Assembly (NCBI RefSeq): GCF_003334385.1
Contig: NZ_QOWN01000047.1
Origin: Escherichia coli
GTDB taxonomy: Bacteria; Pseudomonadota; Gammaproteobacteria; Enterobacterales; Enterobacteriaceae
Length of the DNA stretch: 34,123 bases
Strand: one strand, 5' to 3'
Shown here: piece by piece, positions 18,897 to 33,612 of the stretch
Numbering within the stretch: position 1 is the stretch's first letter
Layout: each line of letters opens with the position of its first letter
Translations under genes and position numbers: made by a program
Notes under the pieces: generated by a model
Database searches by the model: none
What the model was told of the DNA's origin: nothing
What the model saw: only the letters and a program-made list of their open reading frames with translations

Positions 18897-18917
18897 GAGC
18901 CTGCCATTGGCAGGCTC
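18897..18917 (+). terminator. Hairpin immediately downstream of gntP (possible terminator)
   Basis: GAGCCTGCC-ATT-GGCAGGCTC stem-loop 11 bp after the gntP stop, followed by TGTT; weak U-tract. Confidence 0.45.
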
Positions 18918-25660: not shown

Positions 25661-25779
25661 ACTGCTTTCCTTTCAAAAAACTATTTCTAAATCGACATGG
25701 GCAGTCGTTCCGTACACTTTGTTTTGTCAACGAGTTTGACTGCCAACACTGCACAGTTTCCCCCCAAAAGATGAAACAT

Positions 25780-26094
25780 TTGGGGCCAAAACTGTCCATA
25801 TCATAAATAAGTTACGTATTTTTTCTCAAGCATAAAAATATTATAAAACGACAAAAAGCATCTAACTGTTTGATATGTAAATCATTTCTCTTGTAAATTA
25901 ATTTCACATCACCTCCGCTAAATGTAAAGCTAACGTTTCTGTGTCTCGAAGCAACTTCCTCATTCTTCTCTCCAAAAACCACCTCATGCAATATAAAAAT
26001 CTATAAATAAAGATAACAATAGAATATAAAGCCAACAAATAAACTGAAAAAGTTTGTGCGCGATGCTTTCCTCTATGAGTCAAAATGGCCCCAA
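25780..26094. mobile_element. fimS: fimS invertible phase-variation switch (about 314 bp) bounded by 9-bp inverted repeats
   Basis: TTGGGGCCA at about 25780-25788 and its inverse TGGCCCCAA at about 26086-26094 flank an AT-rich segment between fimA and fimE, matching the known fim switch architecture. Confidence 0.85.
25799..25829 (-). promoter_or_regulatory. Candidate fimA sigma70 promoter inside fimS, reading toward fimA (switch ON)
   Basis: On the minus strand, TTGAGA (about 25829-25824), an 18-bp spacer and TATGAT (about 25805-25800) lie just inside the fimA-proximal inverted repeat and point at fimA. Confidence 0.6.
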
Positions 26095-26141
26095 TTGTCT
26101 TGTATTTATTTGTTTTTTACCTTTACTATCAATAAGTTAAA

Positions 26142-29270: not shown

Positions 29271-29987
29271 ATGAAAAAGGCTAAAATACTTTCTAGCGTA
29301 TTATTACTGTGCTTTTCGTCCCCATTAATTTCTCAGGCTGCGACACTGGACGTACGTGGTGGATATCGTAGTGGAAGCCACGCCTATGAGACTCGACTCA
29401 AAGTCAGTGAGGGATGGCAAAATGGATGGTGGGCAAGCATGGAAAGTAATACCTGGAATACCATTCATGATAATAAAAAGGAAAATGCCGCACTCAATGA
29501 TGTTCAGGTTGAAGTTAATTACGCGATTAAACTTGATGATCAATGGACGGTGCGCCCGGGAATGTTAACGCATTTTAGCAGCAATGGCACACGCTACGGA
29601 CCCTACGTAAAACTGTCCTGGGACGCGACAAAAGATCTTAATTTTGGCATTCGCTATCGTTACGACTGGAAAGCTTACCGACAACAAGACTTATCTGGTG
29701 ATATGTCTCGTGATAACGTTCATCGTTGGGATGGATATGTCACTTACCATATTAATAGTGATTTCACCTTCGCATGGCAAACGACGCTATACAGTAAACA
29801 GAACGATTATCGCTATGCAAACCATAAGAAATGGGCGACGGAAAATGCATTTGTTCTACAATACCATATGACGCCCGATATTACGCCATACATAGAATAT
29901 GACTACCTTGACCGTCAGGGTGTTTACAACGGCAGAGATAATTTATCGGAAAACAGTTATCGCATTGGTGTGTCATTTAAACTGTAG
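29271..29987 (+). CDS. nanC: N-acetylneuraminic acid outer membrane channel NanC (KdgM family)
   Basis: ORF 29262-29987; start at MKKAKIL... gives 238 aa with signal peptide and C-terminal Phe-like beta-barrel ending (VSFKL). Confidence 0.9.
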   Translation: MKKAKILSSVLLLCFSSPLISQAATLDVRGGYRSGSHAYETRLKVSEGWQNGWWASMESNTWNTIHDNKKENAALNDVQVEVNYAIKLDDQWTVRPGMLTHFSSNGTRYGPYVKLSWDATKDLNFGIRYRYDWKAYRQQDLSGDMSRDNVHRWDGYVTYHINSDFTFAWQTTLYSKQNDYRYANHKKWATENAFVLQYHMTPDITPYIEYDYLDRQGVYNGRDNLSENSYRIGVSFKL

Positions 29988-30006: not shown

Positions 30007-31113
30007 ATGAATAAAACAATAACGGCGCTTACTATCATAATGGCTTCATTTGCCGCAAACGCGTCTGTATTACCGGAAACTCCTGTGCCATTTAAAAGTG
30101 GTACCGGAGCAATTGATAACGACACTGTCTACATTGGTTTAGGTAGCGCAGGTACGGCATGGTACAAGCTGGATACACAGGCCAAAGATAAAAGATGGAC
30201 AGCGTTAGCTGCATTCCCTGGCGGACCGAGAGATCAAGCAACCTCTGCATTTATTGATGGCAATCTGTATGTGTTTGGCGGCATTGGCAAAAACAGCGAG
30301 GGCTTGACTCAGGTATTTAATGACGTACACAAATACAACCCCAAAACCAATAGCTGGGTTAAATTGATGTCGCACGCGCCGATGGGCATGGCGGGCCATG
30401 TGACTTTTGTACACAACGGCAAGGCTTATGTTACTGGCGGTGTTAACCAGAATATCTTCAATGGCTATTTTGAAGATCTCAACGAAGCTGGAAAAGATTC
30501 AACCGCTATAGATAAAATCAACGCCTACTATTTTGACAAAAAAGCAGAAGATTATTTCTTCAATAAGTTTCTGTTGTCTTTTGATCCCTCAACACAGCAA
30601 TGGAGTTACGCTGGCGAATCTCCCTGGTACGGAACGGCTGGTGCGGCGGTTGTGAATAAAGGTGATAAAACCTGGCTTATTAATGGCGAAGCCAAACCAG
30701 GATTGCGAACGGATGCCGTATTTGAACTTGACTTCACCGGTGATAATTTAAAATGGAATAAGCTTGATCCCGTCTCATCACCAGATGGCGTCGCTGGCGG
30801 TTTTGCGGGGATAAGCAATGATTCTCTTATATTTGCTGGAGGGGCCGGATTCAAAGGTTCACGAGAAAATTACCAGAACGGTAAGAACTATGCGCATGAA
30901 GGCCTGAAAAAATCATATAGCGCTGATATTCATCTTTGGTATAACGGGAAATGGGATAAATCGGGTGAATTATCGCAAGGTCGGGCCTACGGAGTATCAT
31001 TGCCCTGGAATAATAGTTTATTAATTATTGGCGGTGAAACTGCAGGCGGCAAAGCAGTGATGGATTCAGTTTTAATTTCTGTGAAGGATAATAAAGTCAC
31101 AGTACAAAACTAA
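30007..31113 (+). CDS. nanM: N-acetylneuraminate mutarotase NanM (Kelch-repeat beta-propeller)
   Basis: ORF 29899-31113; start at MNKTITALTIIMASFAANA gives 368 aa with signal peptide; repeated GG...Y Kelch-like blades. Confidence 0.9.
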   Translation: MNKTITALTIIMASFAANASVLPETPVPFKSGTGAIDNDTVYIGLGSAGTAWYKLDTQAKDKRWTALAAFPGGPRDQATSAFIDGNLYVFGGIGKNSEGLTQVFNDVHKYNPKTNSWVKLMSHAPMGMAGHVTFVHNGKAYVTGGVNQNIFNGYFEDLNEAGKDSTAIDKINAYYFDKKAEDYFFNKFLLSFDPSTQQWSYAGESPWYGTAGAAVVNKGDKTWLINGEAKPGLRTDAVFELDFTGDNLKWNKLDPVSSPDGVAGGFAGISNDSLIFAGGAGFKGSRENYQNGKNYAHEGLKKSYSADIHLWYNGKWDKSGELSQGRAYGVSLPWNNSLLIIGGETAGGKAVMDSVLISVKDNKVTVQN

Positions 31114-31118
31114 CGCTT

Positions 31119-31142
31119 CAGGGCCCCGGTAAAGGGGCCCTG
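31119..31142 (+). other. Perfect 9-bp stem-loop in the nanM-nanS intercistronic gap
   Basis: CAGGGCCCC-GGTAAA-GGGGCCCTG directly after the nanM stop codon and before the nanS RBS. Confidence 0.5.
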
Positions 31143-31177
31143 CTATCAATTTGTCATTTCAATTACGCGAAATTTAT

Positions 31178-32158
31178 ATGAACGCAATAATATCGCCTGA
31201 TTATTACTATATTCTTACCGTTGCTGGTCAGTCTAATGCCATGGCGTATGGCGAAGGACTGCCATTACCGGACAGGGAAGATGCGCCTCATCCCAGAATT
31301 AAACAATTAGCGAGATTTGCGCATACGCATCCCGGAGGCCCGTCATGTCACTTTAACGACATTATTCCACTGACTCACTGCCCACACGATGTTCAGGATA
31401 TGCAGGGTTATCACCATCCTCTGGCAACGAATCATCAAACACAGTACGGCACCGTTGGCCAGGCACTGCATATAGCACGGAAATTACTGCCCTTTATTCC
31501 TGATAATGCAGGGGTTCTCATCGTTCCGTGTTGCCGTGGCGGATCGGCTTTTACCGCGGGCAGCGAAGGGACATATTCAGAACGGCACGGAGCCAGCCAT
31601 GATGCTTGTCGTTGGGGAACGGATACTCCGCTATACCAGGATTTAGTCAGCAGAACGCGAGCCGCACTGGCAAAAAATCCGCATAACAAATTCCTCGGCG
31701 TATGCTGGATGCAAGGCGAATTTGACTTAATGACCAGTGACTACGCGTCACACCCTCAACACTTTAATCATATGGTTGAAGCCTTTCGTAGGGATCTAAA
31801 ACAATACCATTCTCAGCTTAATAATATTACTGACGCACCGTGGTTTTGCGGCGATACCACCTGGTACTGGAAAGAAAATTTCCCTCATGCGTATGAAGTT
31901 ATTTATGGCAATTATCAAAATAATGTTTTAGCCAATATTATTTTCGTCGACTTCCAGCAACAAGGTGAAAGAGGACTGACGAACGCGCCTGATGAAGACC
32001 CGGACGATTTAAGCACGGGATATTACGGTTCAGCGTACCGGTCACCGGAGAACTGGACGACGGCACTGCGAAGCAGTCATTTCAGCACGGCAGCCCGTCG
32101 GGGGATTATTTCTGACAAGTTTGTAGAAGCAATTTTGCAGTTTTGGCGCGAAAGGTGA
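31178..32158 (+). CDS. nanS: Probable 9-O-acetyl-N-acetylneuraminate esterase NanS
   Basis: ORF 31151-32158 (TTG-initiated in the track); ATG at 31178 (MNAIISPDYYYILTVAGQSNAMAYG) gives 326 aa with SGNH-like GQSN motif. Confidence 0.85.
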   Translation: MNAIISPDYYYILTVAGQSNAMAYGEGLPLPDREDAPHPRIKQLARFAHTHPGGPSCHFNDIIPLTHCPHDVQDMQGYHHPLATNHQTQYGTVGQALHIARKLLPFIPDNAGVLIVPCCRGGSAFTAGSEGTYSERHGASHDACRWGTDTPLYQDLVSRTRAALAKNPHNKFLGVCWMQGEFDLMTSDYASHPQHFNHMVEAFRRDLKQYHSQLNNITDAPWFCGDTTWYWKENFPHAYEVIYGNYQNNVLANIIFVDFQQQGERGLTNAPDEDPDDLSTGYYGSAYRSPENWTTALRSSHFSTAARRGIISDKFVEAILQFWRER

Positions 32159-32165
32159 GCGTTCA

Positions 32166-32816
32166 TTAATTTGATTTATTCGCATCCATCAGCGCTTTTA
32201 ACTGCTCCGGCGTAAACGGTGGTTTGCGTCGGTGCAACATCGCATGGCAATTAGGGTACACAGGCAGCAAATCATTAACTGGATCCAGCTGGTAATCCTC
32301 TTTGATGGCTGACAGCGGCACCAGGTGATGCACATGGATAAAGCCTTCAGCGATATCACCATAGATCTTCACCAGATCAACACCGCATACGTTGCACTGG
32401 CATCCATGATGTTCGACCGCTTTATCTCGGGCCTTTTTATCGCGTTCATAGCGGTTTACTGTCACCTTTATCGCCGCACCTTCAAGGTATGTCTCCTGCG
32501 ACGGCAACTCATCCGGGAACAGAACGTCGGCTATGGGAGCCGCAGCGGCTTTATCCAGATGAATATGAAATCCCTGCTCTATGAGTAGCTTGACACATTT
32601 AGATTTTATTCCGCCGGTGAAATCCGCAGGGGTAAATTGCGTCCCCGTCATCAATGTCGCTGCGATGCCAGCAATCGCCTTCGAGGGGTAACGTCGGCCA
32701 TGATATTCAATCTCATACAACCGCGCAGGCTGGAACTGATGAGTTTCTCCCGCATCCCATAAATGGATAGCTTCGATGATATACCGCCGCGGAAGATGAT
32801 CAGGGAGTTTATTCAT
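32166..32816 (-). CDS. HNH endonuclease with N-terminal putative modified-DNA (possibly phosphorothioate) sensing domain; candidate type IV restriction enzyme
   Basis: 216-aa ORF. C-terminal HNH signature read directly: CQCNVCG ... HVHHLVP ... NDLLPVYPNCH. N-terminal about 120 aa contains RRYPSKA (Y-P-x-x-A), reminiscent of the sulfur-binding cavity of SBD domains; the SBD assignment is inference. Confidence 0.6.
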   Translation of the reverse strand: MNKLPDHLPRRYIIEAIHLWDAGETHQFQPARLYEIEYHGRRYPSKAIAGIAATLMTGTQFTPADFTGGIKSKCVKLLIEQGFHIHLDKAAAAPIADVLFPDELPSQETYLEGAAIKVTVNRYERDKKARDKAVEHHGCQCNVCGVDLVKIYGDIAEGFIHVHHLVPLSAIKEDYQLDPVNDLLPVYPNCHAMLHRRKPPFTPEQLKALMDANKSN

Positions 32817-32919
32817 GGAGAATGTCCTTATACGTTCTCAGAACAGGCAGCAAAAAAACAAATGAGATCAAGGTAATATATCTTCACTTGCAGGCTTGAA
32901 CAGCAGAAAATTTGCGAGC

Positions 32920-33138
32920 ATGATCGCAATTATTTCACTGCCAGGGATATCAATAGCTTCCAGTAAATCGCTACAGCAGGCAATTGCCAATATAAAAATC
33001 TGGCACAAGGGTGAACAGCGCGCGCCGCATAAGCCATTGTTATTGCTATACGTATTAGCGGGATACCTGAATGGACATCCGCGCCTTTTCGATTATTGTA
33101 GTGGAACTGTCTACGAGGATGCAGTTCGAAGTGAGTAA
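32920..33138 (+). CDS. Hypothetical small protein (possible gene remnant), divergent from the HNH gene
   Basis: ORF 32896-33138 (TTG in track); first ATG at 32920; no recognisable domain. Confidence 0.25.
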   Translation: MIAIISLPGISIASSKSLQQAIANIKIWHKGEQRAPHKPLLLLYVLAGYLNGHPRLFDYCSGTVYEDAVRSE

Positions 33139-33161
33139 GTAAAGGTTGCTGGAAACGATCA

Positions 33162-33380
33162 ATGCCGCCATACAATGATTTTTTAGGATCAACAATGAGT
33201 AATAAAAACTACGAAAGTCACCGCAAAGCGATTGTTAGTAAAGGTATACCACCCGCTCTATTAAATAGGCTCACCAATTCGGATGTTCAGGTGATCAATA
33301 CCTTCTTAACACGAGTGAGCAAACTGGAACTATCTCAACAAGAGAAAGACTGGATCATAAAAATCATCTCTATGGTTTAG
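33162..33380 (+). CDS. Hypothetical small protein
   Basis: 72-aa ORF; an internal ATG preceded by AGGA would give 61 aa; different frame from the preceding ORF; no recognisable domain. Confidence 0.25.
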   Translation: MPPYNDFLGSTMSNKNYESHRKAIVSKGIPPALLNRLTNSDVQVINTFLTRVSKLELSQQEKDWIIKIISMV

Positions 33381-33581
33381 ACAATTTCAGCCTTGTAGCC
33401 TTTCAAGGGTTTTGTGTGGGTACAAACATTATCGAATCGGGGTATAGCCGCAGCTGTAGCTGTATCCACATCAGTAAGTTGATGTAGGTTGACTTAGGTT
33501 GAGCGAAAAATAGCGAAAAGCCTTGTGTGGCGCGGATTTCAGTCATAAAAAAACGTCCGTTGATGTCTATTGATGTTCCGA

Positions 33582-33612
33582 TGGTGCGAAGGTGCGAAGG
33601 CCGGACTCAAAC
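33582..33612 (-). repeat. Degenerate copy of the tRNA-Leu (leuX) 3-prime end; putative island attachment-site remnant
   Basis: Minus-strand read GTTTGAGTCCGGCCTTCGCACCTTCGCACCA matches the T-arm/acceptor 3-prime end of leuX (GGTTCGAGTCCGGCCTTCGGCACCA) with one deletion and an 8-nt tandem duplication; no complete tRNA is present. Confidence 0.55.

What the first reader, a model, noticed from the sequence alone, without database searches (positions are those of the whole stretch)
31119..31142. Perfect GC-rich hairpin between nanM and nanS
A 9-bp all-G/C stem with 6-nt loop directly follows the nanM stop codon inside what should be one operon. It could act as a partial terminator or mRNA-stability element and set differential expression of nanS relative to nanC-nanM.
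Basis: seen in the sequence. Interest (0 to 1): 0.3.

Follow-up and report, generated by a model that had tools for sequence, protein, structure and literature searches.

The report
Conserved RNA hairpin after nanM
A strong RNA hairpin sits just after the nanM gene inside the E. coli sialic-acid operon nanC-nanM-nanS; related bacteria keep its shape, and it most likely lets the first two genes outlast or out-express the third, which is an ordinary kind of operon fine-tuning.

Summary
The hairpin is real and at the stated coordinates. Its arms are CAGGGCCCC (31119-31127) and GGGGCCCTG (31134-31142), the loop is GGUAAA, and it folds at -21 kcal/mol. It starts 6 nt after the nanM stop and ends 35 nt before the nanS ATG. 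One detail is wrong: the stem has 8 G-C pairs and 1 A-U pair, so it is not all G/C.

It is not a chance palindrome. About 0.03 such hairpins are expected per shuffled window. It occurs once per genome in 5036 of 5426 complete E. coli genomes. Pairing is kept across lineages through compensatory double changes, two G-U wobbles that pair only in the sense RNA, and complete stem replacement in more distant nanM orthologues. This holds whichever gene follows nanM (nanS, a yjhB-like transporter, or none).

No U-tract follows the stem, with 3 U in the first 8 nt, so it is not a canonical intrinsic terminator.

The best reading is an operon-internal protective 3' stem-loop of the malE-malF / Dar and Sorek 2018 type, which stabilises nanC-nanM mRNA relative to nanS. 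Weak termination is the main rival. I found no transcript data for the induced operon, so the function is inferred.

It is a new member of a known kind and of modest interest.

The parts
29271..29987 (+). nanC, the N-acetylneuraminate outer-membrane channel and first gene of the nanCMS operon
   Evidence: RefSeq annotation of the near-identical strain 504239, mapped to the window. KdgM/OmpL-type porin hit.
30007..31113 (+). nanM, the N-acetylneuraminate epimerase/mutarotase; stop codon TAA at 31111-31113
   Evidence: NCBIfam NF010730, 1.4e-180. Annotation.
31114..31118 (+). 5-nt spacer (CGCUU) between the nanM stop and the stem. A ribosome terminating at the stop would cover the first few stem pairs; this is an inference from known ribosome footprint size.
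   Evidence: Read directly from the sequence. The same 5-nt offset is seen in L024, L028 and L029.
31119..31127 (+). 5' arm of the hairpin, CAGGGCCCC
   Evidence: Pair counts.
31128..31133 (+). 6-nt loop GGUAAA. The first base is a G/A polymorphism within E. coli.
31134..31142 (+). 3' arm of the hairpin, GGGGCCCUG
31143..31177 (+). A/U-rich, unstructured spacer (CUAUCAAUUUGUCAUUUCAAUUACGCGAAAUUUAU) between the hairpin and the nanS ATG. It is not a U-tract and has no recognisable Shine-Dalgarno. It is the inferred place of the endonucleolytic cut that would separate nanCM from nanS. The start of the tail, CUAUC, is shared with relatives.
   Evidence: 3 U in the first 8 nt. Tail comparison. The cleavage role is inference only.
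31178..32158 (+). nanS, the sialate 9-O-acetylesterase and distal gene of the operon; intact 326-aa ORF
   Evidence: 98% identical to K-12 NanS over 326 aa. No sigma-70-like site on the + strand in the nanM-nanS spacer, so nanS is inferred to depend on read-through past the hairpin.

Best explanation
The element is a selected, sense-strand RNA stem-loop that marks the 3' end of the nanM cistron inside the NanR-controlled nanC-nanM-nanS transcript.

The most likely mechanism is differential mRNA decay:
1. RNA polymerase largely reads through the hairpin, because no U-tract follows it.
2. The polycistronic RNA is cut by an endonuclease in the A/U-rich, unstructured spacer or further downstream.
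3. The 9-bp, -21 kcal/mol hairpin then blocks 3'-to-5' exonucleases (PNPase, RNase II).
4. The nanC-nanM segment therefore outlives the nanS segment.

NanS also lacks a Shine-Dalgarno sequence. Together these features would give more porin and mutarotase than esterase from one promoter.

Shown here: the hairpin exists, is stable, is single-copy, is conserved in structure rather than sequence, lies on the sense strand, and lacks a U-tract. Inferred: the read-through, the cleavage, the exonuclease block and the resulting expression ratio.
For: Structure and stability: -21.0 kcal/mol, z = -4.7. The hairpin is kept in 86-nt and 271-nt folds.

Conservation within E. coli and its close clades:
- It is present once per genome in 5036 of 5426 E. 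coli genomes, and the spacer is identical in K-12.
- All nine variant sequences I fetched and read keep at least 8 bp. They carry a loop G/A change, 1-nt slippage in either arm, or G-C to G-U.
- Two divergent Escherichia lineages carry independent C-G to U-A double changes, at pair 7 (E69) and pair 8 (SCPM). On the nine-sequence alignment, 100% of cells are paired, and 8 of 500 shuffles reach the observed values for cells paired, double changes and covariation score.

Conservation in more distant NanM orthologues, which also have a hairpin within about 11 nt of the nanM stop with different stem sequences:
- E. albertii: GGCUCCU/AGGAGCC.
- L024: CAGGGCUCC/GGAGCCCUG.
- L026: GACUCUC/GAGAGUC, with 4 double changes.
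- L028 (71% NanM identity, followed by a NanS/SASA gene): AGCCCGGAG/CUCCGGGCU, with all 9 pairs changed on both sides.
- L031: a 13-bp stem.

Strand: two G-U wobbles (D6/7CC and L029) pair only in the sense RNA.

No U-tract: the terminator scan does not list the site, and there are 3 U in the first 8 nt.

Precedent: Dar and Sorek 2018 (PMC5927463) report that in 26 of 34 E. coli operon gene pairs with a stabilised 5' gene, the stabilised segment ends at a stable hairpin. These hairpins have no U-tract and no detectable Rho termination, and they are often conserved. The model case is malE-malF.
Against: - No transcript data are available for the induced operon. No 3' end, half-life or nanM:nanS ratio could be found. 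The Adams 2021 Term-seq tables have no 3' end at the junction, but nanCMS was not induced in those media.
- Some orthologous hairpins are followed by U-rich tails, which looks more like termination or attenuation. Examples are Salmonella L025 (AAUUUUUUUC), L026 (CUACAUUUUAUUUUCC) and L024 (UUAUCAAUGUUUU).
- The hairpin persists where nanS is a pseudogene (E. albertii, L029) or absent (L024). Its role is therefore not specifically about nanS dosage.
- The covariation sample is small, and for the most distant sequences (L028/L029) homology of the hairpin rests on position and the shared CUAUC tail.
Confidence: 0.5

Rival explanations
1. Leaky, non-canonical intrinsic terminator or attenuator. 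A fraction of polymerases stop at the hairpin, so nanS is transcribed less than nanC-nanM. This does not exclude the stabiliser role, because the same hairpin would protect the terminated 3' end.
For: The GC-rich 9-bp stem has a typical loop size. Orthologous hairpins in relatives carry more U-rich tails: Salmonella L025 has AAUUUUUUUC and L026 has CUACAUUUUAUUUUCC. The E. coli tail CUAUCAAUUUGUCAUUUC looks like a degenerate homologue of these. In L024 nanM is the last called gene and the same hairpin is the only obvious 3' structure.
Against: The E. coli tail has only 3 U in the first 8 nt and none adjacent to the stem, so it fails the scan criterion. L028, which also has nanS downstream, lacks a U-tract too: its tail is AUCUGAUAAUGG. 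The stem starts 6 nt after the stop codon, so a terminating ribosome would overlap it and tend to suppress termination during coupled translation; this is inference from established ribosome footprint size. No 3' end has been reported there (uninduced conditions).
Confidence: 0.25
2. Translation-linked element. The stem lies 6 nt past the nanM stop, so it forms only after the terminating ribosome leaves. It might act on ribosome recycling or re-initiation, or on the accessibility of the Shine-Dalgarno-less nanS start, rather than on RNA 3' ends.
For: The stop-to-stem offset of 5 nt is conserved in E. coli, L024, L028 and L029. nanS has no recognisable Shine-Dalgarno.
Against: The hairpin ends 35 nt upstream of the nanS ATG and does not pair with the initiation region in the folds. 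The hairpin is retained where no gene, or a dead gene, follows.
Confidence: 0.1
3. Relic or neutral palindrome. It would be the leftover stem of an ancestral nanCM terminator, or a quasi-palindrome kept perfect by template-switch repair, with no present function.
For: nanM is followed by different genes in different lineages, and nanS is reported as missing from most relatives of E. coli (PMC3658417). The hairpin was lost without obvious consequence in E. whittamii and Escherichia sp. E1V33.
Against: Pairing is kept over divergence in which the stem sequence is fully replaced. Compensatory doubles arose independently. All nine fetched variant sequences, drawn from across the ranking of about 5000 genomes, keep at least 8 bp. 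The G-U wobbles fit RNA-level constraint better than DNA-level constraint.
Confidence: 0.1
4. DNA-level site: an operator for a dimeric protein, a member of a repeat family (REP/BIME), or a recombination or insertion target.
For: The repeat is perfectly inverted. An IS1 sits exactly at its 3' edge in strain fS149a, and a deletion endpoint lies inside the 5' arm in E. whittamii and E1V33.
Against: It is single copy per genome. It is not annotated as a repeat or binding site in K-12. Half-site sequences are not conserved between lineages, only their complementarity. The G-U variants would be mismatches in DNA cruciforms.
Confidence: 0.05

Closest known systems
Operon-internal protective 3' hairpins that drive differential mRNA decay (malE-malF intercistronic structure; the set of 26 E. 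coli cases in Dar and Sorek 2018, PMC5927463)
   Same: A stable hairpin at the boundary between an upstream cistron and a downstream one in the same operon. No U-tract follows it. Its structure is conserved in related species. The upstream genes (an outer-membrane or periplasmic component, as with malE) are plausibly needed in larger amounts than the distal enzyme.
   Different: The defining behaviour has not been measured for nanCMS: a stabilised upstream segment with RNA 3' ends just after the hairpin. The malE-malF element is made of REP repeats, whereas this hairpin is unique in the genome. Most Dar and Sorek structures lie inside the downstream coding sequence, whereas this one is intergenic.
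Rho-independent (intrinsic) terminators, including leaky operon-internal attenuating terminators
   Same: A GC-rich stem of 9 bp, a 6-nt loop, and a position right after a stop codon. Some orthologous hairpins have U-rich tails.
   Different: No U-tract is adjacent to the stem in E. coli. The stem lies within reach of the terminating ribosome.
REP/BIME extragenic palindromes of E. coli
   Same: A GC-rich intergenic palindrome, transcribed, inside an operon. REPs are known mRNA stabilisers.
   Different: It is single copy per genome, is not annotated as REP in K-12, and has no Rfam match. From memory, the sequence does not resemble the REP consensus.

Membership tests
Rho-independent (intrinsic) terminator | GC-rich stem-loop (about 5-14 bp stem, 3-8 nt loop) | tested here: met
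   9-bp stem with 8 G-C pairs, 6-nt loop, -21.0 kcal/mol.
Rho-independent (intrinsic) terminator | U-tract (several consecutive U) starting within 0-2 nt of the 3' end of the stem | tested here: not met
   The tail is CUAUCAAUUUGUCAU, with 3 U in the first 8 nt. The site is not listed by the terminator scan, which requires at least 5 T in 8. The minus strand also fails, with tail AAGCGUUAGUUUUGU.
Rho-independent (intrinsic) terminator | RNA 3' ends generated at the site by RNA polymerase alone | not testable with these tools
   The only searchable Term-seq supplement (Adams 2021, PMC7815308) lists no 3' end at the junction, but the operon is repressed in those media.
Operon-internal protective 3' hairpin (differential decay; malE-malF / Dar and Sorek 2018 type) | Energetically stable hairpin at the boundary between a promoter-proximal and a distal cistron of one transcription unit | tested here: met
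   The hairpin lies between nanM and nanS. nanCMS is described as one NanR-regulated operon (PMC3658417). No sigma-70-like site lies on the + strand in the spacer.
Operon-internal protective 3' hairpin (differential decay; malE-malF / Dar and Sorek 2018 type) | [quoted passage not shown] | tested here: met
   The criterion is as stated in PMC5927463.
Operon-internal protective 3' hairpin (differential decay; malE-malF / Dar and Sorek 2018 type) | Structure conserved in related species | tested here: met
   Compensatory changes and full stem replacement with pairing kept in Escherichia clades, E. albertii and orthologues at 86%, 77%, 71% and 68% NanM identity. Absent in Aeromonas and in orthologues at 57% identity or below.
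Operon-internal protective 3' hairpin (differential decay; malE-malF / Dar and Sorek 2018 type) | Upstream segment longer-lived or more abundant than the downstream one, with processed 3' ends immediately after the hairpin | not testable with these tools
   No RNA-seq, Term-seq or decay data for induced nanCMS were found in the searchable literature.
REP/BIME repeat family | Many dispersed copies per E. coli genome | tested here: not met
   A 34-nt query in sensitive mode with E-value up to 10 gave a median of 1 place per genome and a maximum of 2.
Any curated Rfam RNA family | Match at or above a family's gathering score | tested here: not met
   0 matches in the whole window.
Palindromic operator for a dimeric DNA-binding protein | Conserved half-site sequence across orthologous loci | tested here: not met
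   Arms differ completely between lineages (CAGGGCCCC, GACUCUC, AGCCCGGAG) while complementarity is kept.

The most novel reading that the evidence does not exclude
The hairpin could be a ribosome-gated switch. Its 5' arm begins only 6 nt after the nanM stop codon, and this offset is conserved in several lineages. The stem could therefore form during transcription only when the ribosome translating nanM lags behind the polymerase. Poor nanM translation would then trigger termination or rapid decay of the distal nanS segment, while tight coupling would allow read-through. That would make distal-gene expression report on translation of the periplasmic mutarotase gene.
Probability: 0.08. Interest if true: 0.45.

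Novelty: new member of a known kind. Interest (0 to 1): 0.3.

Why it matters
nanCMS is part of the E. coli sialic-acid regulon, which matters for gut colonisation. How one promoter yields different amounts of porin (NanC), mutarotase (NanM) and esterase (NanS) has not been addressed in any paper I could search. A conserved 3' hairpin after nanM gives a concrete and easily tested post-transcriptional explanation. It also adds an intergenic, non-REP example to the class of protective operon-internal structures. The comparative result shows that the element travels with nanM rather than with nanS. That bears on how nanS, and in other lineages the yjhB/yjhC-like genes, were joined to an older nanC-nanM unit. 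None of this would surprise a specialist in bacterial mRNA decay.

Tried and rejected
- Rfam scan of the whole window found nothing.
- The terminator consensus scan does not list the site.
- A d'Aubenton-Carafa-type terminator score, with the formula recalled from memory and modern energy parameters, gave negative values even for likely true terminators in the window. I discarded it as uncalibrated and used only the U counts.
- Term-seq and 3'-end literature:
  - The Adams 2021 supplement has no 3' end at the junction, under uninduced conditions.
  - No supplements are held for PMC9023263, PMC4161252, PMC6061677 or PMC12259150.
  - The Dar and Sorek 2018 supplements do not mention the nan genes.
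- The primary nanCMS papers I tried to open by PMC id (intended as Kalivoda 2013, Steenbergen 2009 and Condemine 2005; two of the three ids were recalled from memory) are not held.
- Papers mentioning nanC, nanM and nanS together gave no per-gene polarity data.
- The exact hairpin in viral contigs gave 2 hits, both ordinary E. coli fim-nanCMS chromosome fragments.
- The genome-contig scan with NanM returned only 4 Escherichia loci. Wider orthologues came from the protein search and contig look-ups instead.
- MAFFT misaligned the distant hairpins of L028/L029. I therefore counted those pairs by hand-registered arms in a script. That register rests on the offset from the stop codon and the shared CUAUC tail.
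- The repeat-element, operator and antisense-terminator readings were rejected for the reasons given under the rival explanations.

Full report
**1. What is in the sequence**

The window is E. coli chromosome running mdtM ... uxuAB, gntP, the fim operon, fimE, fimB, then nanC-nanM-nanS on the + strand. It is near-identical to strain 504239.

| Feature | Window coordinates | Basis |
|---|---|---|
| nanC | 29271-29987 (+) | |
| nanM | 30007-31113 (+), stop TAA 31111-31113 | NCBIfam N-acetylneuraminate epimerase, 1.4e-180 |
| nanS | 31178-32158 (+) | intact 326-aa ORF, 98% identical to K-12 NanS |
| 5' arm CAGGGCCCC | 31119-31127 | |
| loop GGTAAA | 31128-31133 | |
| 3' arm GGGGCCCTG | 31134-31142 | |

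The phrase "all-G/C" is not: the second pair (A31120-T31141) is A-U.

The stem starts 6 nt after the last base of the stop codon and ends 35 nt before the nanS ATG.

**2. Is it more than chance?**

- As RNA the 24-mer folds at -21.0 kcal/mol (z = -4.7; 0 of 200 shuffles fold as well).
- It is the dominant feature of the MFE and centroid structures in 86-nt and 271-nt contexts.
- Perfect stems of at least 9 bp with at least 8 G-C pairs and a 3-10 nt loop occur once in the window, against 0.03 expected per dinucleotide-preserving shuffle.

**3. Distribution and variation in E. coli**

The whole 64-nt nanM-nanS spacer is identical to K-12 MG1655, where the stem lies at 4537630-4537653 on the minus strand. 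K-12's RefSeq record has no repeat, regulatory or terminator feature there.

A 34-nt query around the hairpin, in sensitive mode with E-value up to 10, finds one place per genome in 5036 of 5426 complete genomes. This matches the roughly 93% prevalence of nanCMS reported in PMC10088187. The hairpin is therefore not a REP/BIME-type repeat.

Of those genomes, 3301 are identical over the 34 nt, 1467 differ at one position and 268 at two. The nine variant sequences I fetched from across the ranking show:
- G/A at the first loop base;
- a G-C to G-U change (strains D6 and 7CC);
- loss of one C or one G from the C4 or G4 runs, giving an 8-bp stem and a 7-nt loop (-15.8 kcal/mol).

None of the fetched variants loses more than one pair.

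**4. Covariation in relatives**

Two divergent Escherichia lineages (NanM 91-93% identical) carry independent C-G to U-A double substitutions, at pair 7 (E69) and pair 8 (SCPM-O-B-8794). On the nine-sequence alignment every cell is a standard pair. Only 8 of 500 column shuffles reach the observed values for cells paired, double changes and covariation score, and slid registers score far lower.

NanM orthologues found by protein search, and their contigs, show the following downstream of the nanM stop:

| Locus | NanM identity | Gene after nanM | Hairpin |
|---|---|---|---|
| L022, E. albertii | 85% | nanS remnant | GGCUCCU UUAA AGGAGCC |
| L024 (nanA-nanT-nanC-nanM context) | 86% | none called | CAGGGCUCC GGUUAG GGAGCCCUG |
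| L026 | 77% | yjhB/yjhC-like genes | GACUCUC GUGCA GAGAGUC; 4 pairs changed on both sides |
| L025, Salmonella Eastbourne | 78% | MFS transporter | weaker interrupted stem plus AAUUUUUUUC |
| L028 | 71% | SASA-family nanS | AGCCCGGAG AUAU CUCCGGGCU, 5 nt after the stop; all nine pairs differ from E. coli on both sides |
| L029 | 68% | nanS remnant | same as L028, with one G-U |
| L031 | 59% | sialidase autotransporter | 13-bp stem, 11 nt after the stop |

The short tail CUAUC after the stem is shared between E. coli and L028. This supports positional homology.

In Aeromonas, Klebsiella oxytoca, Rouxiella and the E. coli NanM paralogue (49% identical, L034) there is no stop-proximal hairpin. 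In K. oxytoca and Rouxiella, ordinary-looking terminators lie 40-60 nt downstream.

The two G-U pairs (D6/7CC and L029) would be C-A mismatches on the other strand, so the constraint fits the sense transcript.

Conclusion: the hairpin is a selected RNA structure of the nanM 3' end. It is older than, and independent of, the particular gene that follows.

**5. Terminator or not?**

The tail is CUAUCAAUUUGUCAUUUC, with 3 U in the first 8 nt and none abutting the stem. The consensus scan does not list it. The reverse strand is no better.

Two defining features of an intrinsic terminator were tested: the stem is met and the U-tract is not. I therefore do not file it as a canonical terminator.

Weak termination cannot be excluded, especially since some orthologues have U-rich tails. 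The stem lies within reach of a ribosome sitting on the nanM stop codon. From established knowledge of ribosome footprints, this should interfere with hairpin formation during tightly coupled translation.

**6. Most likely mechanism**

The features match the class described by Dar and Sorek (PMC5927463). In 26 of 34 E. coli operon gene pairs where the 5' gene is stabilised, the stable segment ends right after an energetically stable hairpin. These hairpins lack a U-tract, show no detectable Rho termination, and are frequently conserved in Salmonella and Enterobacter. The model case is malE-malF, where the structure blocks PNPase and RNase II after an endonucleolytic cut.

Applied to nanCMS:
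1. The polymerase reads through the hairpin.
2. The transcript is cut in the A/U-rich unstructured spacer (31143-31177) or beyond.
3. The hairpin protects nanC-nanM.
4. The nanS segment decays faster. It also lacks a Shine-Dalgarno sequence (read directly).

Steps 1 to 4 are inference. Only the anatomy and its conservation are shown.

No internal promoter-like site lies on the + strand of the spacer. nanCMS is described as one NanR-controlled operon (PMC3658417).

**7. Direct evidence sought and not found**

- The Adams 2021 Term-seq tables contain no 3' end at the junction. They list only an antisense 3' end inside nanS at 4536716(+). The media used do not induce the operon.
- Other 3'-end or operon-architecture papers have no searchable supplements.
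- The Dar and Sorek supplements do not list nan genes.
- The primary nanCMS papers I tried to open are not held.
- Papers naming all three genes give no polarity data.

**8. Verdict**

- Observation: confirmed apart from "all G/C".
- Interpretation: partly supported. It is a real, conserved RNA element at the nanM 3' end. A stabiliser role is more likely than a terminator role, and the function is untested.
- Novelty: a new, apparently undescribed member of a known kind.
- Interest: modest.

Noticed in passing
window about 25776-26098; L016 8824-9146: This segment, upstream of fimA, is in the opposite orientation in an IMG/VR E. coli contig relative to the window. That is consistent with the known invertible fimS phase switch.
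   Followed up: no
window 31178-32158: RefSeq/PGAP annotates nanS as a truncated pseudogene ('missing C-terminus') in strain 504239, CFT073 and several other genomes. The 326-aa ORF here is intact and 98% identical to K-12 NanS, so this is probably an annotation artefact.
   Followed up: partly
L005 and L006 about 4108-4200; L022 about 4108-4250; L014 1530-1560: nanS has decayed independently in relatives. E. whittamii and Escherichia sp. E1V33 have a deletion that starts inside the 5' arm of the hairpin and removes about the first 25 nanS codons. E. albertii has an internal nanS deletion. In E. coli fS149a an IS1 sits exactly at the 3' edge of the hairpin and nanS is gone.
   Followed up: partly
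L025 3712-3850: In Salmonella Eastbourne the spacer between nanM and the MFS transporter gene holds a C8 run and a second GC-rich hairpin (CCCACCUCC CAG GGAGGUGGG), after a U-tailed weak hairpin. The gene caller's MFS start overlapping the nanM stop looks over-extended.
   Followed up: no
window 32159-34123: Homology to K-12 ends 3 nt after the nanS stop. Instead of K-12's ythB/yjhR region, this strain has an HNH endonuclease gene (32166-32816, minus strand), a remnant of a phosphorothioated-DNA-binding restriction endonuclease, and (beyond the window end in the matching strain) IS fragments. This is a variable island boundary.
   Followed up: no
K-12 NC_000913.3 4536716 (+), antisense inside nanS: The Adams 2021 Term-seq supplement lists an antisense RNA 3' end within nanS, 21 nt past the small-protein gene ythB. 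It is not related to the hairpin.
   Followed up: no
window 31160-31180: nanS has no recognisable Shine-Dalgarno upstream of its ATG (…ACGCGAAAUUUAUAUG). The L028 orthologue likewise lacks one.
   Followed up: no
window 13450-13478 and 18897-18917: These are the two other perfect hairpins of at least 9 bp in the window. They lie in the uxuR/yjiC spacer and in the convergent fimH/gntP spacer, and are likely ordinary gene-end structures.
   Followed up: no
L025, L026, L027, L032: In Salmonella and unnamed enterobacterial contigs, nanC-nanM is followed in the same orientation by an MFS transporter gene, and in L025-L027 also by a GFO/IDH-family dehydrogenase gene (yjhB/yjhC-like). In E. coli K-12 the yjhBC genes form a separate NanR-regulated operon (PMC3658417). 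This suggests the nanCM unit has been joined to different distal genes in different lineages.
   Followed up: partly
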